A DNA stretch of 64,000 nucleotides from Callorhinchus milii. Lineage: Eukaryota. The position numbers and the translations under genes are program-made. The DNA is taken from NCBI RefSeq assembly GCF_018977255.1, contig NW_024704744.1:17732001-17796000 (forward strand), written 5' to 3'. Below the pieces are notes generated by a model. It was not told where the DNA came from, ran no database searches, and saw nothing but the letters and a program-made list of their open reading frames with translations. Below are positions 4,010 through 62,529 of this stretch, piece by piece (the stretch's first letter is position 1; every line of letters begins with the position of its first letter).

Positions 4010-4535
4010 TGGATGTGGGGAAGACAGTTGAGGTCAAACAAGACACCAAAGTTGTTCCTGACTGGCTTGGTGAGTTGAAGTGTGCAACCATGGAGGTTGA
4101 TGTTGCCAGAGCCTGAGTCTTGTTCACTGTAGGAAATTTGCCCTCATCCAGGACTTGATGTCCGACAGGCAGTCTGTCAGGACAACAGTGGTCCTGGAGT
4201 TGAGGGTGGAAGCAGAAAGATAGAGTTGGGTGTCATCGGCATACATGTGGAAGTTGACCCCATGTCTGCGGATGATGTCACCAAGGGGGAGCATGTAGAT
4301 ATTAAAGAGGAGAGGGCCAAGGACAGAGCCCTGGGGGATGCCAGACGGGCGCTGGAGGAGAAAACGTTAGAGGCAACAAAGTGAAGACGGTGAGAGAGAT
4401 AGGAATCGACCAGGCAACGGCAGGTCCGCGAAGATTAAGTAAAGAGGAGAGGCGGTGTATGAGGATGGAGTGGTCGACAGTGTTGAAGGCGGCAGAGGTC
4501 AAGAAGAACAAGGAGGCAGAGGGAGCCCTGATCAC
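4010..4535 (-). mobile_element. L2 LINE reverse transcriptase fragment (pseudogenised)
   Basis: Minus-strand translation with frameshifts: [63 protein letters not shown] (YADD motif), [10 protein letters not shown]. Confidence 0.92.
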
Positions 4536-6739
4536 AGATGTTCAGAATGTCATTAGTGACTTTAAAACACATATCTAAACACAAGATTATTATTGCAACC
4601 CTTGAGAAGGAATACAATCACCTCTATTGTCATGAGGAGTTTCTAATAGATCTTATAATAAAAACCTATCAACGATGCCTAATACTGCAATATCAGGGTA
4701 GTTCTCTTTTTCTTCTGAAATGACCATTGCTTAAGATCGCAATCTGATCCTTATAGAATGGGGAAGTTGCTTTAGGCTACATGAATGAGAATGAATTTGT
4801 TCAAAGTGCTTGTGAAATTGGGCCAGGAGCCAAAGACAAGTCTTTGATGGTGGGAATAAAGAAGATATAGAAGTAGCAGAGTTATATACACAGGAAGATT
4901 AGACAACATGTCTGACAAGCTTCTTTTTTAAGGTGACAGCGTGACTGATCCTCTCTCCTTTACAGTAATGGACTGAAGTTCAAAGTATACAGAGAATAAT
5001 AAATCAGGAATATTGATTACACATAAAATTTCATAATTTTAGTAACAGCAAAGTGTGCACGATTGAGGACAATTGGTTTTAAGCTTTTTGTGTGTTCGGA
5101 TGGGATTTCAATATAATCAGACTTGAAAGTATTCTGGAGAAGCTCAGAGAATACTTTCCTTGTGGAGCTCTGGATGCCATCATGTTAACAACATCAAAGG
5201 TTACCTTACAACAGTACTTTGAGGGTATAACCCTGACCAAATACAAGCCACGTTCGAGCTGAATTTAGAAACCTGAAGAATTTATACCTGGGAGCAAAAT
5301 TGTTGTAAGCCATGTTTAAAAATAAATCTTTTGAAACTCATTTCAACCGAAACAAGTGTTGACCAACTTTTCTCCAAGGAACAAGGGGAGCTTGCTGCTT
5401 CTTAGCTCTGGTAGTTCAGACTTCTCAAGTGTGTAACAGATCCCAACCACTGCCCCACGGAACAGTTAGTTACACAATATTAACCAGCAGCTGACTAACG
5501 GTCTTTGGATTCTACCAGATTATATCAAAATATATATTAGTTATAAAACCTCTAATCTGCACTGTGTTAAATCCATCAAACTTCGTAAGAGTCTCTTTAC
5601 AAATTTTAACTGCATGTTAAGAGACTGATTTGAGATATGCCGAGGTCTGTGGCCTGTGTTCTGATTACCCTGGTTTGCAGCTCAGCTAAAATCTAATATC
5701 AAGTCTCAAGTGAATTATGCAGCTGATTCAGATTGCTTCCTCTAACAGTCAAATTAAAGTAATGTGATGTGAAACTGTTCTTTCTCTCCTTATCCGTGAT
5801 CAGATTTAGTCTGATGCAACATCAATCTCTGTAGTAACTGCATTTTCAAAATGAAGATGTGAAAACAATTGCCTCCGCACCCAATGTGCAAGACTGAGAA
5901 GCTGCTGCCAGTATTAGCATGGCCAATAGATATTCAAACTTATTTAAAGACGTGTGCTTGAATAATAAGCCCACAGATTCAGGGAACAGTTAAAGGTAAT
6001 GCTGTAGTCTGCGTTTAAGATTTCCTGATGCTTCAAACAGATGGTTGACAATCATGATCTCTTAAAGAATCCATTATTCCAGCCCTGCTTCAGTGTGGTT
6101 ATTTAAATGCATAGCTACACAACTCACAACAGCAGGGTACTCATCTGCCTACAGTTAGTGGCTAAACGTCAACACAACATCAGAAGGGCAGACTAACAAG
6201 CCATTTTTAAAAAATGAGTTCTATTTCATCTGCTGCAAAGCAAAATGACCTTTCAAATTGCACTCTGGTGTATCAGACAATTTCTCTGCAGCACAAGTGC
6301 ATAGTGTGCATCATTCTTGAATAATGCATTAGGTTGTTACAGTACACAAAGCAAGGCTGCTAAATGCATATTTAAAAAGAGAATGCATCAGTCGCAGATT
6401 CTATTACTGTCCCATGCGGTAGTAATATGTTTCAGCACCAATATGATTAGAAGATAAGGAGAATCATTTGTCAATGGAGCATGTAATACATTTAGGGAAA
6501 AGTAGAATATGATGGGTTTTTGTCTACTCTGTGCTTTAATATGAACTCCCAAAACCAGTAATAGAAAATGAAATTTATAGCCCAAATTATTACCATACAG
6601 GAACTGTCCTGTGTCTATTTGCAATTGTTCATTTTTAAGCATAATTTGACAGAACTTAATTTTTTTCATCTATATGCATCCAGTTTATAAAATGATCAAT
6701 GCTGATTTGAACAATTTATTAAAGATCTATGGTTTCTAG

Positions 6740-9875: not shown

Positions 9876-9879
9876 AGTT

Positions 9880-10012
9880 CTTGGTCAGCCGGGTGTCCAG
9901 TACATGAGGAAACGCATCACCATGCTTATGAGTATCCAAACCAGACTGAGATTCACATGCATGCCATATGTAAAAGGCAATTTCCACATGTCTTGAATGC
10001 TCACTCTCTCCA
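9880..10012 (-). mobile_element. Family X retroposon, 3' fragment
   Basis: ttggtcagcc...catcaccatgcttatgagtatccaaaccagactgag matches the 3' end of family X copies at 50830 and 61420. Confidence 0.8.
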
Positions 10013-10020
10013 AATACTTA

Positions 10021-11002
10021 CCTGACCAACTGGTGACTAATCTTCTCGGGGGGGGAAGGGGGGGGGGGGGCAGAGAGGAGGTAAGTGGGGTCTCCTTGAA
10101 GCTGTACTGGCTCCAAGGTGATATGCTTGGCAATAGAATCAATCGTCAATCTCTGTAGCAGTCTCAGTAGATGGGTTCCTGAGCCAGATTGATCTGCAGT
10201 ATTCCAGGGTGCTGACGACTGATCAGCCTGCCTGGCTCATTGGCAGAATATGAAGATTCTTCCCTCTCAGCTACTTTTAACCCTGCAAGCCAAAGCCCTA
10301 AGAAGGGTAGTCCTAGCTGGACAAGCAACAGGAAGCTTGCCACACAGTGCTTTTAATGGCAAGTTATGCAGTTTGAACTGGTTAAACTGCAGCAGTACCC
10401 TCGACAAATATTCTGGGGCCCAAGACTTGGCTCTTACCAACCCACACCTCATACTGCCTGGAATTAGATCTGCAGGATGTGTCCCTCTGGGGAGAGATTG
10501 TATATTCCAAACACGACAATTTCCATGTGTAGGTGGAGTCCTGTAGCTCAGTGGTTAGAGCACTCGCTTTGCAAGTGAGGGACCTGAGTTCAATTCCAGG
10601 CAGCGCGAAACCTTGGGCAAGTTTCCTTACTCCACACAGAGCCTAATAATAATCCCTCCAAAAACCAAAAACAATAATAAATTGGTCATTTTCAATCCAC
10701 GACTGTTTGTGGGACATTGTTGTGCGCAATTGGCTGCCGCGTTCGCCCACAAATATACAGTCAATTCACTTTACAGTGTGTTCTGTGAAGCACTTTGGGA
10801 CATCCTCCCGACGTGAAAAGCGCTATATCAAATGCAAGGAATATATATATATATTATTCTGTGAAGCGCTTTGGGACGTCTAGAAGACGTGAAAAGTGCT
10901 ATATCAAATGCAAGGATTATTATTATTATTATTATTATTGTAGGTGGCATTCATAGAACTCAGTCTAGTTTGGATATTCTTAAGCATGATGACAGATGTC
11001 AG
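10021..11002 (+). mobile_element. Family X retroposon, near full length, interrupted by SINE A at 10535-10938
   Basis: Reverse complement aligns along its length with 35425-35998, 50830-51290 and 61420-61993 (e.g. ggtaagtggggtctcc, gcctggctcattggcag, taaccctgcaagccaaagcccta, tttggatattcttaagcatg). Confidence 0.88.
10535..10938 (+). mobile_element. Young tRNA-Ala/Deu SINE (family A), full length with two 3' tails
   Basis: A-box TAGCTCAGTGG, TGC anticodon loop, B-box GAGTTCAATTCC, Deu-like gtttgtgggacattg...aattggctgccgcgtt, (ATT)n tail; TSD TGTAGGT at 10528-10534 and 10939-10945. Confidence 0.95.
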
Positions 11003-11144
11003 AAATTATGCAACTCTAGAAAAGTATTAGGCACAGAAGGCGAGAGCCAGGATTTGTAGACCCAGAGTCTGCTTGAGTTTAAACATCTAAAACATTTAAA
11101 ACTCAAATGCTTGTCATTTGAGATCACGATCATGCAGGTTTCCC

Positions 11145-11375
11145 GCAGCTAGGATCACCTGATCAGGCTTTGCCTTGCAGGGTTAAAAGAAGCAGATTCG
11201 GAAGAATCCCTGTTCCCAGTATTTATCCTGATCCTCCTAAGTCCTACTGCTGAACCACATTGGCTGGTCTGGCAACAGCCTTGCCTTGGAGGAATCGGTG
11301 GCTTAGGAGCTGGCCAAACGAGACAGGCAGAAGGTTGCCAAGCATATCGGAGACCCCACTTATATGTCTATGTGG
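11145..11375 (-). mobile_element. Family X fragment (decayed)
   Basis: cagctaggatcacc...ggctttgccttgcagggttaa and ttgccaagcatat..ggagaccccactta match other X copies. Confidence 0.7.
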
Positions 11376-17299: not shown

Positions 17300-17786
17300 G
17301 TTATCTTGCATGCTGGTCAAGTACTCTGTTCCTCTGTTAGCAGTGGCAGCCATCGAAGAAGGTTGCTTAACCACCATTGGAAGCAGGATTGGAAAAAGGG
17401 GAAGATTTCTTCTTTTGGCAATGGTAGAGAAAAAGAGCAGGGGTGGGGGAGGATTCTTCCCATTTGGCTCGTGTTTACTCTACAAGCCATAATCCTAACG
17501 GGTAAGGGCTGGATAAACAGCGAGAAATTTGCTATGCAGTGCTGTCAATTGCTAGCTATACGGTTTTAAAGGGGTTAAACTGCAGCAATACTCCAATACA
17601 CATTGGGGTCCCCAAGCCTTAGCTTTTGCCAGTCTGTGCCTAATACTTTCTTGAAGAGTGTGCATTCCATTCCAATACATGGGAATTTCTATTGTTAGAT
17701 GACATGCACGGAAATCTGTTTGGTTTGGATACTCTTAAGCATTGGAATTCCCTATGTGTTAAACACCTGACTGACCAAAAAGAAAA
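17300..17786 (+). mobile_element. Family X retroposon copy with A-rich tail
   Basis: ggttaaactgcagca, ggtccccaagcctt and tttggtttggatactcttaagcat; ends ctgactgaccaaaaagaaaa. Confidence 0.8.
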
Positions 17787-31731: not shown

Positions 31732-34700
31732 ATTTCTGGTATCATGCATTCTTGCGTAATAACTATAGATGATTCTGCATTACCCTTCACTGGAATCACT
31801 ATTGAACCCACAAGCCAAGATTGAACACGAGTTGCCAGAGTAGCAATATTGTTAATCTGAAGTATAAGTTATTTTCTCACATTGAATGTAAAATACAAAT
31901 AATGTGGCATTTTAGGTTGAACGGAACCTCTACAGTACACATCAACTAACTGTGAAAAACAGAGGATATACAGTTGAGAGCCAATGAAATTCACTATTAA
32001 TTAAACAAGGATATATGGATGACTGTTTACCAAACTAATGAAGAAACAAACAATATGAAGATAACCACACTAAGTGCCAAAAGCAATTTATTACTTGATT
32101 TTGAAACAAAGCACACAAGACACCAGTAACGTCTTGAACATATTGAAATCTTTACGAAGGATGTGTTGAGCAACAATGAACATTAGGTCACATTGCACAT
32201 GTACATACGATTTATTCATAGCATATACAATGCAGCACAGACAGTCCAAACTGGTTCTCTACACAACAGTAGCTGTCTTTATTTTGCTCACTAGTTAATT
32301 ATCCTACATCAATTACAGTTACATTTCAGAGTACAAATGAATCAAAAACTCTTGTTCCATGCCAATTATTCCAAAAACAGTTCAATTTTATTTTAAGTTT
32401 ATAAATGAATTAAAATTCAGATCAGCATATTTTGCAGGTCTCTGGACTCAAAAGAAAGTCTAACATATCCTCCTCTTCTAAGTCTTTGAAACTGAAAACA
32501 TAAAAGCAACAGTAGTGTATAGTTCCCTTTCTTCTTCCCACACGTTTTTAACCGCCTTCCTGCAGGGGTTGTAATGTAATTCAAAGTATAATGGCAGCAC
32601 ACATTCTTACTTACAGTAGTTCCACTGTGCACCTTGAAATGAAAAATGGTTCTCATTTCACTGAAAGAGACTTTAAAACAAATACAAACAGTGATAATGA
32701 CTTGACGGTTTCTGTACACTGGTAATGTGAACAGCAGTTTAATTCTGCAGATAATCAAGTAACAAAACATTTTACCTTATACGGTCAAAGATGTAAGGAA
32801 GTTGCTAAGGCTGTTCATTTCCTTTCCAGTAAGATGAATTAAGCTACCGTATATCCATTTGTACTCACATCTCCCGCCACCTTCCCCTGCCCTCCCCCCA
32901 AGCCCAGCCAGGACCCACCAACTGTGCAAGCCTTACAACAGCTGAGGATTTTTTAAAAAATATATGAATCCATGTTCAATTACCTGATGAAATTAAACCA
33001 TTTCCATGACAACACTCAAAGAAAATAGTATTCATTTGATGGGGTGGGGGAATTGGAAATAAGAGTCTCTACTTGACGTTTCAATTGTTTGCTGAAAACT
33101 GTCTTACTTCAAACTAACAATCATCACTGATTTTTTCATCAAATGCCTTATTGAGGCCACTCCACACACAGCAACGTAAAGCAGCGAGACATGCATACAA
33201 GCATGCATACCATTTGCTTATGTATTCAGCAATTCATCTTTCATATCACATCTTTACATAATTCTGTATCTCAATATGCCTCCCACATATCCATCATTTA
33301 AATGCCAGCTCAGCTTGACCTAATCTACACAATTCAAGCTTCATTTCATATTTCCCTTGCAGTTACCGTTTTATTCATCTTCGGGAGAAAGTAACAGAAG
33401 AATAATTCTATGGTCATGGTTCACTGATAATGCCACTCAACAACCAGAACAAAACAACAATTGAAATGGGACAATCATCATTGTTGCATGAACAGAGAAA
33501 TACACAATATTGCTGTTAAACAACTGTACTACAGCTCTGCAGCTTTGTAATATAAAAATAACCAAATGCTTTTTTTAAAAAAATCTAATTAAAACAAAAC
33601 AAGATTTTCAGTGGAGAAAAAAATGCTGTCCGTTTCATCATACTCCTTTTTCAGAGATCATATTAGCTTCTGTCAAACCTTATCTTCTTATCAATTCTGA
33701 ACTAAATATTTAACTGATTCATGAATAGAGTATTCTTCCTGCAAATCGCACTGCTTCATTCTTGAATAATTTGTTCATCTGTCATTTTAATGAGTCTTTT
33801 CTCACCCTTGACTTTGACCAATCCAAGACACACACTAACCTTTAGTGAATACCATCCCTGGACACAGACCAACATTCAGGGAATAGTCTCAGCACCACAC
33901 TGGTCTGATGATGTAACACACACTCTACACTACACTACACTGGGTTTGTCAAAATAGGGACTTGGCTACAGATGGGTTCTATTGTTTGGAACTGGCATTG
34001 AAATAGGGATTTGCATAGAACTGACATGAAAAAAACGGCAGCATTTTGCTTGTGTATTCAGCAATTCATCATTCACATCATATCGTTATATAATTCTGTG
34101 TTGGTCTGAAAATGGGGATTGACATAGTATTCATGTAAAAAATGGCAGCATAACTGGATCAGTATTAGGACCTGGAGACTAAATAACACTTAGAAATGAC
34201 CACTCTACCTGTTAGGGCTTTGACTTGCAGGGTGAACAGGACTGGCCCTCAGTGACTGATCTGCCCTTCCATTCACTTTGATTCGAGAGAGAAGCAGTTT
34301 CACACATGAAAAAACGAATCACAAGCAGTCAGAGATAGGTTTTTTGTAGAAAGGCGAATACAATTAATTTACAAAAATACAAGAAAAACACATGGGCATT
34401 CAAACACTGTGGGCATTCAGAAACTGAAATCACAAACATAATTTGGAATTAGCTAAATGTCATTTGGAAAAAGGGCAACTTTTGGACTTGTTTTATCTGT
34501 ACACTCATGNAAAAAATATAAATGCACTGGTCAGAAATGCAACCATCTCCTTATTAATTTAAGGATTTTTAAGACTTAAAACTGTTACATTTTCACACAT
34601 AATGCACTTTTGTCCCCCAGTTCTGCAGATATTTGCCCGTAACATAATGCCAGACATTTTCCAACAGTAAAGTGAATATTATAAAAGAAAAATGACAATA

Positions 34701-35424: not shown

Positions 35425-35998
35425 CATATGACACATGTGGAAACCTATCATAATGCTTAAGAGTATTCCAAACCATACAGATGGAGTTCCACATCTTTAT
35501 GTCACCTCTGCTTGAAACTTTCCTGTGTCATGGAATGGAATGCACTCTCTCTCCCTAGGCGCAGCTTGGCAAGAACCAAGGCTTGGGAATCCCAGAGTCC
35601 ACACTGTGGTACTGCTGGAGTTTAACCAGTTAAAAAACTTACCATTAGGAGCACTGCCTGGCAAGCTTCCCAATGAGCTAGGATCACCCTACCAATTACA
35701 GCTTTAACTTGCAAGATTACCAGGAGCTGAATGGAAAGGTTCTCTGCCTCCAGTGACCAGCCTACTCTTCCAATTCCTGTGAACAAGCCAGGCTAGCTGG
35801 TCTACCATTTGCTACGTCTTGAGCGATGGCAATATTACAGACCTGCCTGGTGCTGAGGAACCGGAGACCAAAACTGCGACAGAGGATCAACTTGATTCCA
35901 ATATTCCATTGCCAAGCATATGCAGCCAGTTCAGTCCAAAGGAAACCCTATTTGTTCTCACTCTCTCTCCTCCCCTGAGAACAGTCACTAGCTGGTCA
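35425..35998 (-). mobile_element. Family X retroposon, near full length
   Basis: atgcttaagagtattccaaacc, ccaaggcttggg, gtactgctggagtttaaccag, ctaggatcaccctacc, ttgccaagcatat, gtcactagctggtca. Confidence 0.85.
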
Positions 35999-36322
35999 TC
36001 TATCTTCTATACCAATTAAGACGTAATGTTTGTGTGTCTGTCTGTCTGCTAAGAACTCAATAACCGATTGATATGCAGACACGACTTATACCTCATCGGA
36101 AAGGTCTTGCATGCCGGAGTGTCACGGGCATATTTTTGATGGATCTGTCCTGTCGTTGATGAGCTATGACCTAAAGAAGCTCATCACACATGTATGGCAG
36201 TTTTGCTTAAGTATATACGCAGTGTCTATGGCATGTCAAATGGTTTGTGAATGGTATCACTGAAATCTACATTCCATATTGGATCCTTTGGTTGCAAGTG
36301 TAGCTGTAACGGGTACAGCTAG
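35999..36322 (+). mobile_element. Non-autonomous Helitron (324 bp, shorter relative of 21616-22332)
   Basis: A|TCTATCTTCTATACCAATTAAGACG...gttgcaagtgtagctgtaacgggtacagCTAG|T; shares ttatacctcatc.gaaagg and ttccatattggat.ctttggttgcaag with the other copy. Confidence 0.85.
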
Positions 36323-46995: not shown

Positions 46996-47044
46996 ACTGC
47001 ACTATTGGTGGGCAATGTTGGACGTGCATTCCTTCAAATAACAA

Positions 47045-47450
47045 GATCTCCTTGTGAGCTTCCTGGTGATGAGCACAGTTCAGCATAAAATAAGTGAGAG
47101 CATTGCCACCATCTTGCTGTTCACAACTTGTTCACACATCCTTTCCCATTTGGTGATGGTTCCACCAACTGGAGGTGTGGAGCTTGAGCAGCAGCTGCTT
47201 ACCTCTCTGCATATCAGTCAAGGTTGATTCCAAGCCCTGGATATACAAACATGTGTTCACGAACTCAAACTCTGGGTAACACCTTCCAGCAGCTGTTATC
47301 CAAGTCTTACAGCTTCTTCATCATCTATCTGATTGACAACTGCCTTCAATGTGATAAAAAGCATTTTAGAGGACAGCTTGTGATGTGCCAGCCACCGTGA
47401 TGTTCTCGGGGTGCACGTGCAATGTTTCATACCAGGCTTACTCAGCACCA
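47045..47450 (-). pseudogene. Highly decayed non-LTR RT C-terminal fragment, RTE-like
   Basis: Frameshifted minus-strand peptides NITVAG, DDEEAVRL/ITAAGRCY, GLESTLT, AAQ..HL..V, ITKWER in the order expected for the RTE ORF tail. Confidence 0.4.
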
Positions 47451-49287
47451 GCTGCTTAATCCAATTCCTCATGTGAGGGGCTGAGGCAAATAAACAACAA
47501 TAACTTGCACTTATATAGCGTCCTCCACGCAGGATAGCATCTGAGCACTTAACAGTGGCACTGGAGTCTGACTCCGAGCCGGGAGTTGTAAACCAGATTG
47601 AAGAAACGTGCCACCAGTGAAGTTAACTCCACCCATTGGGGTACTCAACAACAACAAATTGCAATTATATGCTCAGCAACAGGTGAGTGAATGCCAAAGC
47701 CCTCCCTTTCTGCAGCTGCTTCCCAGTTTGCCATAAATTCACCTCATTATGGGATACTGTTGTGTGCAAATTAGCTGCCTCATTTGCCTACAGCATATAG
47801 TCAATGCACTTTACAGTATATCCTGTGAGGGGCTTCGAGATAGCCTCCCAAAGTGAAATAGCAAATGTAAGTATCATTATTATTTATTATAACAATTTCC
47901 TACAAGCAGTCCTGAAGTGACTGACAGCATGGTGTCAGTCATAACCTTCAGGACATTTCAGGCAAAACACTCATGGGAATGGAGGTTTTGCATTCAAAAC
48001 AGTTAACTGTATTGGCAGAAAATATATTTTGGCTAGATGCTTGAACAAAAACACCCAATGGTACACAACAAAAATTCTATTTAAAGCAGTGTTACAAATT
48101 AACACTAGTTATTAACTAGAAGATGCAGTAAAGTATAAAATACATAGTACTGTTATTTACTACCATCGTAAATCAGATTGAAGACTGAGAGCTCCTGCTT
48201 CAACCACAGAACTGGCCTGTGTTGTGAAGCGAATGATTAATCACAGATTGACATAATTGCTGAAAGCGAGTCTCCATCCAAATCCAAGAGAATTAAAGTA
48301 CAGTGCATTCCTCAGTTGGTTTCATCTGAAACTGAATGGTTCTAAAACAAATTGCCTGGAGACAAGGGTGTCTGGATATTAACAGAGTCTCACCTCGATG
48401 ATGAATCTAGCCAGAGTATTTGGTAACATACACTATGCTCAACAATGCGAGACAGCTGCAGTGCTGTCTTCCCGAACTTCAAAAATGCATATCATGTGTG
48501 AAGTACACCCACTAAGCACTCCCCATTGAAAGAAAACAGGATGGGGGGGGGGGAGGGAGAGGGGAGGGGGCAGAAAGAGGGAGGACACTTCTCAAAATTG
48601 GAAATTACTAGCTGTGTTAACTTTGGAATGTTTGTTCGTGCTAACAGCAGCAACACAAACGCTTAGAAAAGTAAAGCAACCATTTAATTCTGATTCAGAG
48701 TAACTCAAGGCATCCATTGAAAATAAATTCTTAGTATCTTGATATACCCAGGAGAATGTTCAAGGAAGGAGGAGTGTATTAAAAGTGTCTTTCATAATCC
48801 ATATTTTAAATGTTGCAGCTTCAATGTAAAAGAATTTAAACATTTTCTCTTGTTTAGCTGGTATTTTCAGGGATAAGCCATGGTCATCATATCTAATCTT
48901 CAGAATGTTAGTGCATACATTGCTATGAATTTCTGGATGATTACGTAAGCTGCCATCTACATGTTTGTTGTGTACTTTATACTCAAGTTACTATCTTTAC
49001 CAGACTTTTACAAAATAGCACGTTTCTGAAGGCAATGATTTGTTGTCTCAGAAGGCTTTTTGTCTCTTCAGTAACAAAAGGTGTGGTTACCAAGCAGCAG
49101 TTTCAGTTGTCCCAGAGAACTATTTTCCCACTGACGTAGGCTTTCTGACATATACAGCTGAAAGAGCTGGCCCAGAATAGATCTGACACCATGCTTTTAA
49201 TTTTATACTGGAGGACATCAATGTTGTCTGAGGCTTCCAAGCAGTATGACTTGGCCAGTTTTATTTAAATACACTTATGTTGAACAT

Positions 49288-50829: not shown

Positions 50830-51290
50830 TTTTTTTTGGTCAGTCGATTGTCTGACACATGAGGACACCCATCACGATACTTACGAGTAACCAAACCAAA
50901 CTGAGAAATTCCACCTACACTTGGAAATTCTAGAGATAAATTAGCGGAATGAAATATGCAGAGAATTTCTCCCTGGATGGACACATCCTGCTTACCTAAT
51001 TCCAGAATGTATTAGGCCAGAGCCAAGGCTTGGAGACCCCTGAATGAATGTTGGGGTACTGCTGGAGTCCAACCAGCTAAACCCCATAGACTGTCACTGA
51101 AAGCACTGCCTGGCAAGATTTCACTCTGCTTGTCTATTTAGGATCACCCTACCCATTAGGGCTTTGGCTTGCAGGGTTAACAGGAGCTGAGTGGGAAGTG
51201 TCCTTCCAAATCCTGCCAATGAGCCAGGCTGGCTGTGCTGCCGTCATCAGTGCTGTGGAATACTGCAGACCAGCCTGACTCTTGGAACTA
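50830..51290 (-). mobile_element. Family X retroposon, 5'-truncated, with poly(A)
   Basis: T-run then ggtcagtcgattgtctgac; ggtactgctggagtccaaccag, ggatcaccctacccattagggctttggcttgcagggttaacaggagctgagtggg, aatgagccaggctggctg. Confidence 0.88.
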
Positions 51291-51689
51291 AATAAATTTT
51301 CTCACCTCTATGTGTTTTGGAGCAGAACTGCATTAGTAGAGGTTCATCCTTTACATAGAGGTGGGTTAGGTGAAAGGTATTTAGGTGGATGTTAAAAGTC
51401 CTATGGCGATATTTAAACAGAAAAAGGAGATTCACGGAAGCATAGTTGCTGGGGGGCCCGAATCCATGCGTGTGTACACACGAGACTAATAGTTAGTGAT
51501 TCACCTTAACCTTTTCCCCATCTCTGAAGCATTAATTGGGGGGAAGAAACAGGAAAAACTGAACACTGCCTAGACAGAATCAGCAATGAATACATTTGAT
51601 GTAAACTTTTTTTGGGGGGAGTCAGTTGAACGTTGACACATGTACTCACGCCATGTTTACGAGTATGAAAACCAGGCAACAGTTCCATT

Positions 51690-51860
51690 CAGGCCTTCCT
51701 ACCTAAATCCGGAGTATTGGACACAGATTGGCAAGACCCAAAGCCTGGGGACCTCAGAGTCTGCATTGAGGAACTGCTGGAGTCTAACCAGCTAAACTGT
51801 ATATCTTGCCATTGAAGACACTTACTAGCAAGCCTCCTGCTTTGGATTGGATTATGGGGG
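51690..51860 (-). mobile_element. Family X internal fragment
   Basis: aagcctggggacc, actgctggagtctaaccagctaaac. Confidence 0.65.
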
Positions 51861-58754: not shown

Positions 58755-59070
58755 GGAAGGTTCTTCGCACTAAGCTCACATTAACACTGCAAGCCAAAGT
58801 CCTATGGGTAGTGTAATCCTAGCTGGACAAGGAGAGGGAACCTTACAAGACAATGGTTTCATTGAAGACTTTTGCTGATTAAAATCTAGCAGTACCCTAA
58901 TGCGCACTCTGGAGTCCCCAAGCCTTGGCTCTTACCAACCAAGTCTAAGACTCTCCAGAACACTCAGGAAAAGAGTGCGCATTTCATACGAGACATAGGG
59001 AAATTTCTATAAGCAGGTAGCATACAAATGTGGAACTCAGTATGGTTTGGATATCATTAAGCATGGTCTT
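58755..59070 (+). mobile_element. Family X fragment
   Basis: ctgcaagccaaagtccta, cctagctggacaag, agcagtaccc, ccccaagccttggctcttaccaacc, tggtttggatatcattaagcatg. Confidence 0.8.
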
Positions 59071-61340: not shown

Positions 61341-61419
61341 CTGAATTTGTACTGAACTTCATTTGTCAAAGTACTGCAACATAGGAAGCAAAAATAAGAG
61401 GCATACTTACTGCATGGAT

Positions 61420-61993
61420 TTTTTTTTTGGTCAGTCTGACAGATGCAGAAGCCCATTACCATACTTAAGAGTATCCAAACCAAATTGAGAGTTCCATGTA
61501 TCCTACCTACACATGGAAATTCCAGAGATAGACTGTTGGAATTAAATGCACACTCTCTCTGGAGGGATGCATCCTGCTTACGCAATTCCGGAAAGTATTA
61601 AGCGCTGGTTGGAGTGTGCAGAGTTGGAGTACTGTTGGAGTCTAACCAGTTAGAACCGCATAGTTTGCCAATGATATTGCTGTCCAGCAAGCTTTCTCAC
61701 TGCTTGTCCAGCTAGTATCACCCTACCCATTAAGACTTTGGTTTGCAAGGTTAATAGGAGCTGAGTGGGACGATTCCCTGCCCCCAATGCCTGGTCTACC
61801 CTTCCAGGTCCTGCCAATGAGCCAGGCTGGCTGTGCTTTCATCAGCAATGCCCTTGGAATACTGCAGACCCCTCCTGGCTCAGCAACCGGACATCCGAGA
61901 CTGCCACAGAGGTTTGGCTCGATTCTGACATTCTGCTTCCAGGCACGTCACCTTGGAGCCAGTTCAGCTCTAAGGAGACCCCACTTACCTCCC
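61420..61993 (-). mobile_element. Family X retroposon with poly(A) tail and 7-bp TSD
   Basis: CATGGAT at 61413-61419 and 61994-62000; T-run at 61420-61428; body matches the other X copies. Confidence 0.92.
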
Positions 61994-62529
61994 CATGGAT
62001 GGAATCAAACCTGAAAAGAGGGACCCTGAAAGAAATGCGAGGCTGCTGGTTGACTCACCATGTCAAAACAATGCAAGCAGCATTAAACAAGGCAAACAAG
62101 ATGATGATTGTCTGTACTGTCAATTCAGATGAGTTCAGATCTTCAGAAGTCATGTTCAAGCTGTACCATCCTCTGGTCAGGCTACATCTGGAGTCCATGT
62201 TCCCATCACAGAGACAATGTTCCCAATGTCAGAGGAATATGCTATAAGTATTCTTATAAGTAATCACGAGACAAATCAGGGTTCTTCAGCCTTGAAAATA
62301 AATGTCTCAGGATACTTTATACGACATACGTAAGATTTTAAATGGGATTGAGAAAATAAACTGCAAACAATACTTTCAGATATGCTAGAGCAACAGAACA
62401 TAGAGTGGTTATTCTCAAAGGATGAGATCAAATGGGACTAAAGCCCTTTTTCATCACACGAGACACCTTCCTGTGTGAAGGGTGCTACATACATGCAAGT
62501 TGTTGTTCAGCCAAATGAATCTGTATTGG

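What the first reader, a model, noticed from the sequence alone, without database searches (positions are those of the whole stretch)
61413..62000. Unassigned ~600-bp poly(A) retroposon (family X) with a 7-bp TSD, no tRNA head and no ORF
Seen: related copies or fragments at 9880, 10021, 11145, 17300, 34200, 35425, 50830, 51690, 58755 and 61420, about 10 in 64 kb. This copy ends in an A-run, is flanked by CATGGAT on both sides, and splits a CR1 reading frame (HTYCMD|GIK). That pattern fits insertion by target-primed reverse transcription. I see no A/B box, 5S or 7SL similarity, AATAAA or coding remnant. The two longest copies start at the same motif (TGACCARCTRGTGACT), followed by a G-rich tract. 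Inference: an abundant ancient SINE of unknown RNA origin, or the orphan 3'UTR of a LINE. I do not recognise it, but it may already be catalogued.
Basis: partly seen in the sequence, partly recalled or inferred. Interest (0 to 1): 0.72.

Follow-up and report, generated by a model that had tools for sequence, protein, structure and literature searches.

The report
Old LINE tail with tRNA-like arm
This repeat is the dead, front-shortened tail of a roughly 5-kb jumping gene (a LINE), and nearly half of it is decayed protein code rather than a new SINE; its tail shares a small tRNA-like RNA hairpin with distant, mostly unnamed relatives from environmental samples, a hairpin that likely helped the RNA get copied or survive.

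Summary
The repeat, A-tail, 7-bp TSD and split CR1-type frame are real. 'No ORF' and 'SINE of unknown origin' are wrong. Walking upstream in the genome joins family X to endonuclease, RT and CCHC coding remnants (at least 5.1 kb, one ORF); 8 copies carry ORF plus tail inside one TSD. The true 3' UTR is ~320 nt. About 2% of sampled DNA; all copies seen are broken. The RT is 43-47% identical to a large lineage of single-ORF LINEs, mostly unnamed metagenome records (named hosts: a red alga, a chytrid, a microsporidian), and 24-33% to the host's CR1/L2. The scan found this LINE link before on other DNA (e1-9087923). Not in the notes I was shown: six of six fetched relatives that share the C-terminal domain also share a UUUUA + 5-bp T-arm-like hairpin with compensatory changes, closed by a covarying stem around two U-runs just before the A-tail. 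Its function is untested. Clade name and horizontal transfer are unresolved.

The parts
61420..61993 (-). Focal copy: 5'-truncated 3' end of an APE-RT-CCHC LINE (subfamily S1, about 10% from consensus outside CpG)
61994..62000 (+). TSD copy at the element's 5' junction (CATGGAT); its TCCATG on the element strand resembles the element's own TCCTTG before the G-run (possible microhomology, inferred)
61413..61419 (+). TSD copy after the A-tail (CATGGAT)
61723..61993 (-). Decayed coding remnant: C-terminal domain after the CCHC motif (EVSGVSLELNWLQG... then a frameshift ...QSLNG*), stop TAG at 61725-61723
   Evidence: this copy alone scores only 2.3 bits, the family consensus 36.6 bits
61721..61741 (-). 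ORF-end hairpin motif (GCC-NAN-GCC..GGY-AN-GG), matched by pattern in 5 of 6 relatives
61651..61661 (-). 5' strand of the closing stem plus first U-run and A (decayed in this copy)
61634..61650 (-). T-arm-like hairpin (5-bp stem, 7-nt loop UUAGACU); 3 of 5 pairs left in this copy
61443..61454 (-). GGG, second U-run and 3' strand of the closing stem (decayed)
61430..61440 (-). Terminal hairpin remnant GTCAG..CTGAC (loop mostly deleted here)
61420..61428 (-). A9 tail
61378..62051 (+). Older CR1-type coding remnant split by the insertion (aligned part 61378-61419 and 62001-62051)
   Evidence: CR1 label from recalled motifs
47041..47746 (-).
10022..11005 (+).
9878..11366 (-). Older family copy in two halves (9878-10011 and 11012-11366), interrupted by the 10022 copy
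17450..17783 (+). Family copy (S2)
34193..34271 (-). Family fragment
35427..36007 (-).
50830..51288 (-). Family copy (S2) with A-tail
51621..51841 (-). Family fragment
58759..59069 (+). Family fragment (S2)

Best explanation
Family X is the 3' end (last ~90 codons, ~320-nt UTR and A-tail) of a now broken, at least 5.1-kb single-ORF LINE encoding an AP endonuclease, reverse transcriptase and CCHC motif, and this copy was likely made when the element's own enzyme nicked a CR1-type relic and copied its RNA from the A-tail but stopped after ~575 nt. Shown: ORF-to-tail continuity, ragged 5' ends, 7-13-bp TSDs, A-tails, two subfamilies that differ at third codon positions, kinship with an environmental single-ORF LINE lineage, and a covarying T-arm-like hairpin in the UTR shared with that lineage. 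Inferred: target-primed reverse transcription; that the excess of 5' ends near the G-run comes from RT stalling or microhomology at stable hairpins; that the T-arm/U-run domain is a cis signal for the element's protein or a poly(A)-protecting fold.
For: Upstream walk: first-look candidates fall 13,216 > 3,466 > 538 > 143 > 43 > 16 > 9. 28 of 30 loci found with the coding C-terminus continue into family X (includes the query locus and one near-duplicate pair). Pfam RVT_1 above cut-off in 3 of 11 natural open stretches. Single copies L091, L092, L094 span endonuclease end or RT through to the tail. 8 of 16 TSD-bracketed copies contain ORF and tail, e.g. L091 with a 10-bp TSD. 28 of 30 unselected motif copies extend 8 to 200+ nt upstream, 26 by 17 nt or more; null 7 of 150 reach 8 nt. 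Profile of 162 relatives' post-CCHC tails hits the family consensus at 36.6 bits, E 6e-12; 22 of 110 copies reach 8 bits, 0 reversed. 6 of 6 subfamily-diagnostic sites in this part are third positions, 5 synonymous, 1 E to D. RT core 43-47% to relatives, 24-33% to own CR1/L2; nests in a 63-row group, SH-aLRT 96, quick tree. Hairpin: 35 of 35 cells paired, 3 of 5 pairs change on both sides, 0 of 500 shuffles; pattern found in 6 of 6 loci with the C-terminal domain and 0 of 71 without.
Against: No intact or full-length copy was found; the ORF rests on a script consensus that still had frameshifts, and its first ~1,000 nt has 2-13-fold cover and no assigned 5' end. 5' ends are not evenly spread: 20 of 33 at risk end in consensus 4374-4613 against 23 of 110 further 3' (p 5e-5; bins chosen after seeing the data, BLAST ends also break at the G-run). 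62 of 78 intact-tail copies show no TSD of 7 bp or more. The focal copy alone gives no significant protein score (2.3 bits) and folds no better than shuffles (z -1.47). The RNA motif was defined by eye on the same 7 sequences; three AT-rich relatives with 3' ends (L298-L300) lack it. The lineage's N-terminal domain matches the family only weakly (best E 0.03).
Confidence: 0.93

Rival explanations
1. Besides the LINE, a short non-autonomous derivative (about 600-650 nt, starting near the G-run) amplified on its own as a SINE-like element.
For: Excess of 5' ends at consensus 4374-4613; only 7 of 51 fragments in 800 kb of unselected DNA start upstream of 4440; both long window copies start at the motif.
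Against: Ends in the hotspot are ragged: TSD-defined starts at 4476, 4500, 4506, 4507, 4508, 4509, 4521; 28 of 30 motif copies continue; no shared other head upstream; no convincing diagnostic base between hotspot and ORF-linked copies (7 weak hits in about 3,270 tests); S1 and S2 both have ORF-linked members.
Confidence: 0.06
2. The family is a SINE or ncRNA retrocopy of unknown RNA origin with no coding ancestry.
For: No Rfam or tRNA match; consensus folds strongly (z -6.1).
Against: Its first ~270-290 nt encode the LINE's C-terminal domain; it is continuous with RT and endonuclease remnants.
Confidence: 0.01
3. Sub-question, origin: the LINE entered this fish lineage by horizontal transfer from a microbial eukaryote (for example a parasite), rather than being inherited from early animals and lost or decayed elsewhere.
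For: Nearest proteins are environmental or from a red alga, a chytrid and a microsporidian; no animal-labelled protein above about 35%; family nests inside the lineage in the quick tree.
Against: Best identity is only 47% and the tree is star-like with no supported sister (87 with P0218); most relatives have no host label and could be animal; decayed copies in other vertebrates would not appear in protein collections; no other vertebrate genome could be searched.
Confidence: 0.3
4. Sub-question, RNA domain: the two U-runs closed by a G-C-rich stem form an ENE-like triple helix with the poly(A) tail; the alternative is that the domain is simply a recognition handle for the element's RT.
For: Closing stem pairs better within than across species (sum 32, 2 of 720 permutations as high); it lies 20-30 nt before the A-tail; ENEs are U-rich internal loops next to G-C pairs and occur in transposons (PMC7583470, PMC12501189, passages read).
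Against: No simple upper stem: a multi-branch insert of 125-240 nt separates the U-runs; the stem is only 3 bp by the strict rule in L294 and L306; the second U-run is only 3 nt in family X; nothing was assayed.
Confidence: 0.25

Closest known systems
Unnamed single-ORF APE-RT-CCHC LINE lineage of environmental records (P0001-P0260; loci L293-L297, L306); named hosts Galdieria yellowstonensis (P0243), Amphiamblys sp. (P0365, P0419), Batrachochytrium salamandrivorans (P0366 and others)
   Same: Domain order, RT 38-47% identity, CCHC followed by an LLGG..RFL tail domain, ORF ending in ..NG* with a hairpin, short UTR with T-arm-like hairpin, A-tail.
   Different: Here it is in a vertebrate genome at about 2% of sampled DNA, all copies decayed and mostly 5'-truncated; no close relative (none above 47%).
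RTE-group LINEs (RTE-X / Proto2 labels)
   Same: APE plus RT architecture and about 5 kb length (RTE-X mean 4,937 bp in PMC10294476, passages read); a Batrachochytrium paper labels some chytrid LINEs LINE/RTE-X (PMC9926174, passages read); RT motifs resemble RTE-X as I recall them.
   Different: No named RTE-X or Proto2 sequence was available for a tree; it is not shown that the chytrid proteins hit here belong to the RTE-X-labelled families.
L1/Tx1-group LINEs
   Same: Poly(A) tail, 7-13-bp TSDs, APE-RT-CCHC order, heavy 5' truncation; human L1 ORF2p is the best solved-structure match to relative P0036 (E 7e-26; the PDB holds only L1 and R2 for comparison).
   Different: No separate ORF1 seen; lineage-specific C-terminal domain; structured conserved 3' UTR.
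Stringent-type LINE 3' stem-loops, and transposon ENEs (Evade/Copia93, KSHV PAN)
   Same: Conserved, covarying RNA structure just before the 3' tail (PMC3747384, PMC7583470, PMC12501189; passages read).
   Different: Here the conserved core is a tRNA T-arm mimic after a U-run inside a multi-branch domain; no Rfam family matches at its cut-off.

Membership tests
APE-type LINE (non-LTR retrotransposon) | Reverse transcriptase domain linked to the repeat | tested here: met
   Pfam RVT_1 above cut-off in 3 natural stretches; linked in single copies
APE-type LINE (non-LTR retrotransposon) | N-terminal AP endonuclease | tested here: met
   WNVNS, QET, GDWN, SDHW motifs in order; consensus aligns at 33-39% to the endonuclease region of relatives, most of which carry PF03372
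APE-type LINE (non-LTR retrotransposon) | 3' A-tail, TSDs, variable 5' truncation | tested here: met
APE-type LINE (non-LTR retrotransposon) | Intact, active full-length copy | tested here: not met
   Longest natural open stretch in the ORF frame 221 aa among fetched loci; lowest divergence 5.9%; only the best 40 candidates per search were scored
SINE (tRNA, 5S or 7SL head) | Pol III RNA-derived head | tested here: not met
   the 5' part is protein code
SINE (tRNA, 5S or 7SL head) | Fixed 5' end, no extension into an ORF | tested here: not met
   28 of 30 extend upstream
CR1 or L2 clade | RT groups with CR1/L2 | tested here: not met
   24-33% identity to own-genome remnants and separate branch, SH-aLRT 99, quick tree; remnant labels recalled from motifs
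RTE-X / Proto2 / L1-Tx1 / Vingi clades | RT phylogeny with named reference elements | not testable with these tools
   No Repbase, Dfam or RTclass1 references held; PMC2829327 not held
Environmental single-ORF LINE lineage (unnamed) | RT nests in the lineage | tested here: met
   (quick tree only; careful search did not finish)
Environmental single-ORF LINE lineage (unnamed) | Post-CCHC C-terminal domain | tested here: met
   36.6 bits, E 6e-12
Environmental single-ORF LINE lineage (unnamed) | Short N-terminal domain before the endonuclease | tested here: inconclusive
   Right place and frame but best E 0.03; Atlas gave no family
ENE stability element | U-rich internal loop next to G-C pairs | tested here: inconclusive
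   Lower stem and two U-runs present; no simple upper stem
ENE stability element | Triple helix with poly(A) and RNA stabilisation | not testable with these tools
   needs melting, probing or reporter assay

The most novel reading that the evidence does not exclude
An unnamed LINE clade of microbial eukaryotes jumped into a cartilaginous-fish lineage, filled about 2% of the genome and died, and the clade carries a cross-kingdom conserved 3' RNA domain, a tRNA T-arm mimic set in a U-rich internal loop, that clamps the poly(A) tail or docks the reverse transcriptase.
Probability: 0.2. Interest if true: 0.7.

Novelty: new member of a known kind. Interest (0 to 1): 0.4.

Why it matters
Two things remain of interest. 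About 2% of sampled DNA of a vertebrate comes from a LINE lineage whose named relatives are a red alga, a chytrid and a microsporidian, which makes a horizontal-transfer question testable. And the lineage keeps a covarying T-arm-like RNA hairpin at RT identities near 40%, with intact-looking elements (L294-L296) on which 3'-end recognition or poly(A) protection in LINEs could be assayed.

Tried and rejected
2) Tandem repeat, tRNA, Rfam family or ribozyme in the element or its 5' part: none at cut-off (a 25.7-bit R2 element hit on L297 is below its 38-bit cut-off). 3) A different shared head upstream of hotspot copies: none. 4) Unconstrained TSD search was noisy and was replaced by a position-constrained one. 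5) Viral collection: no relatives; the hairpin pattern found 16 stretches, mostly tRNA T-arms, none with the LINE ORF. 6) Sequencing runs: only organism A holds the locus; no RNA holder listed; contigs of X1 and X3 span both junctions and no empty-site joint is among those shown, 81 joints not shown. 7) Atlas gave RT/endonuclease clusters without taxa. 8) Careful tree did not finish in two runs. 9) Literature: 10 searches listed no paper naming this family, this lineage or a T-arm motif in a LINE tail; Repbase, Dfam, PMC2829327 and PMC4864102 could not be read, no supplements were opened, so it may be catalogued. 10) Sequence look-ups in earlier findings returned nothing.

Full report
Observation. 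The element is on the minus strand at 61420-61993, with A9 at 61420-61428 and CATGGAT on both sides. Removing the element and one TSD restores an ungapped frame that aligns to another LINE remnant (31 aa, 39%, E 1e-5), which fixes the duplication at 7 bp. There is no tRNA, 5S, 7SL or other Rfam match and no AATAAA. In 800 kb of unselected DNA from five contigs there are 51 fragments covering 1.97%, roughly 60,000 genome-wide if these blocks are typical.

It is the end of a LINE. The first genome search gave 13,216 candidates with ragged 5' ends, some running upstream. Six further searches walked 5': 3,466, 538, 143, 43, 16 and 9 candidates, the usual truncation gradient. 28 of 30 loci found with the upstream piece continue into family X. 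The upstream DNA is a decayed ORF with AP-endonuclease motifs, RT (Pfam RVT_1 above cut-off in 3 of 11 natural open stretches) and CCHC, at least 5.1 kb in all. A position-constrained test finds TSDs of 7-13 bp in 16 of 78 intact-tail copies against 1.2% of shuffled pairs; 8 of the 16 hold ORF and tail in one insertion, such as L091 with a 10-bp TSD around 3 kb of element. No intact copy was seen; ORF-linked copies are a median 10.5% from consensus, unselected ones 19.8%, this copy 10.2%.

Family X is itself partly coding. That was wrong: relatives have about 127 residues after the CCHC, and a profile of 162 such tails hits the other frame of the family consensus at 36.6 bits, E 6e-12; 22 of 110 copies reach 8 bits, none reversed. 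The motif reads D-Q-L-V-T and the G-tract L-L-G-G-E. The stop lies at window 61725-61723, leaving a UTR of about 320 nt. Two subfamilies exist; both have ORF-linked members, and all six diagnostic sites in this part are third codon positions, five synonymous. The focal copy alone scores only 2.3 bits and has a frameshift.

No fixed 5' end. The motif has 554 exact matches against 9 for the control. Of the first 30, 28 extend upstream by 8 to 200+ nt. There is still an excess of 5' ends around the G-run (20 of 33 against 23 of 110, p 5e-5, bins chosen post hoc), where the consensus folds into stable hairpins (z -3.8; whole 3' part z -6.1; ORF control -0.19). Stalling or microhomology there is my inference; a separately amplified short form has no support from diagnostic bases.

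Relatives. The RT core is 43-47% identical to a large set of 1,200-1,500-aa single-ORF proteins, nearly all from unnamed metagenome contigs, and 24-33% to the genome's own CR1- and L2-type remnants. In a quick tree (71 rows; the careful search did not finish) it lies within a 63-row group at SH-aLRT 96 with no firm sister. Named hosts are Galdieria, Amphiamblys and Batrachochytrium salamandrivorans; matching contigs in bacterial MAGs are most likely misbinned eukaryotic DNA (inference). A paper on that chytrid labels some LINEs RTE-X (PMC9926174, passages), a lead only. No named reference sequences were available, so the clade is unassigned. Horizontal transfer is possible but not shown.

A conserved RNA element. 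Six fetched relatives share with family X a U-run, an A, and a 5-bp hairpin with a 7-nt U-N-N-N-A-C/A-U loop, the shape of a tRNA T-arm. All 35 cells pair, 3 of 5 pairs change on both sides, 0 of 500 shuffles and no slid control match it. The pattern was drawn from these sequences, but its distribution is independent: among 77 loci (395 kb, both strands) it occurs in exactly the six that carry the C-terminal domain; three AT-rich relatives lack both. In 864 kb of the own genome it has 6 hits inside the family and 5 outside. A stem before the first U-run pairs with the sequence after a second U-run 20-30 nt before the A-tail, better within than across species (2 of 720 permutations), though only 3 bp in two of six. 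This recalls ENE elements (PMC7583470, PMC12501189; passages) and stringent LINE 3' stem-loops (PMC3747384; passages), but it lacks a simple upper stem and matches no Rfam family. Function is untested.

Prior knowledge. Earlier scan notes on other DNA of this genome reached 'old LINE tail' several times, and e1-9087923 linked family X to this lineage; I saw them after my own walk and tested the link. Ten paper searches listed nothing that names the family or the hairpin; passages of PMC13343379, PMC9004415, PMC10294476 and PMC4350176 did not describe it. Repbase and Dfam could not be checked.

Verdict. Real repeat, ordinary mechanism, SINE reading refuted. New member of a known kind; interest 0.4, carried by the odd lineage and the shared RNA element.

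Noticed in passing
L127, L140, L143, L145, L150, L165 and others: Long copies very often have clean internal deletions of 200-3,900 nt: 64 rows, 56 distinct after removing overlapping loci, no breakpoint shared between independent loci, about half with a few bases of overlap. Template jumping during copying or later deletion cannot be told apart here.
   Followed up: partly
window 9878-11366: Three-layer nest: a minus-strand family copy interrupted by a plus-strand copy, itself interrupted by a young tRNA-Ala SINE (about 10534-10938) with TSD GTAGGTGG. With the focal insertion this gives the order CR1-type relic, this LINE, tRNA SINE.
   Followed up: partly
window 10538, 23930, 25481, 25938, 27497, 42124, 57338: Seven tRNA-Ala-headed SINE copies, the best pairs 90-96% alike, with TTA-repeat tails; probably the host's known tRNA SINE (recalled, not tested).
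   Followed up: no
L294-L306: Intact-looking eukaryotic-type LINEs with A-tails sit on short contigs inside bacterial and archaeal MAGs used as species representatives; likely binning contamination.
   Followed up: no
L294:4380-4410, L295, L296, L297, L306; window 61721-61741: A second small conserved hairpin (GCC-NAN-GCC..GGY-AN-GG) overlaps the last codons or the stop of the ORF in family X and 5 of 6 relatives.
   Followed up: partly
L055/L057, L068/L069, L071/L072, L161/L162: Pairs of loci 97-99.8% identical over flanks as well, on different contigs or 12-25 kb apart: segmental duplications or assembly duplicates.
   Followed up: no
L044, L050, L110, L171: Family segments in opposite orientation next to ORF-bearing copies, some possibly 5' inversions formed at insertion.
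   Followed up: no
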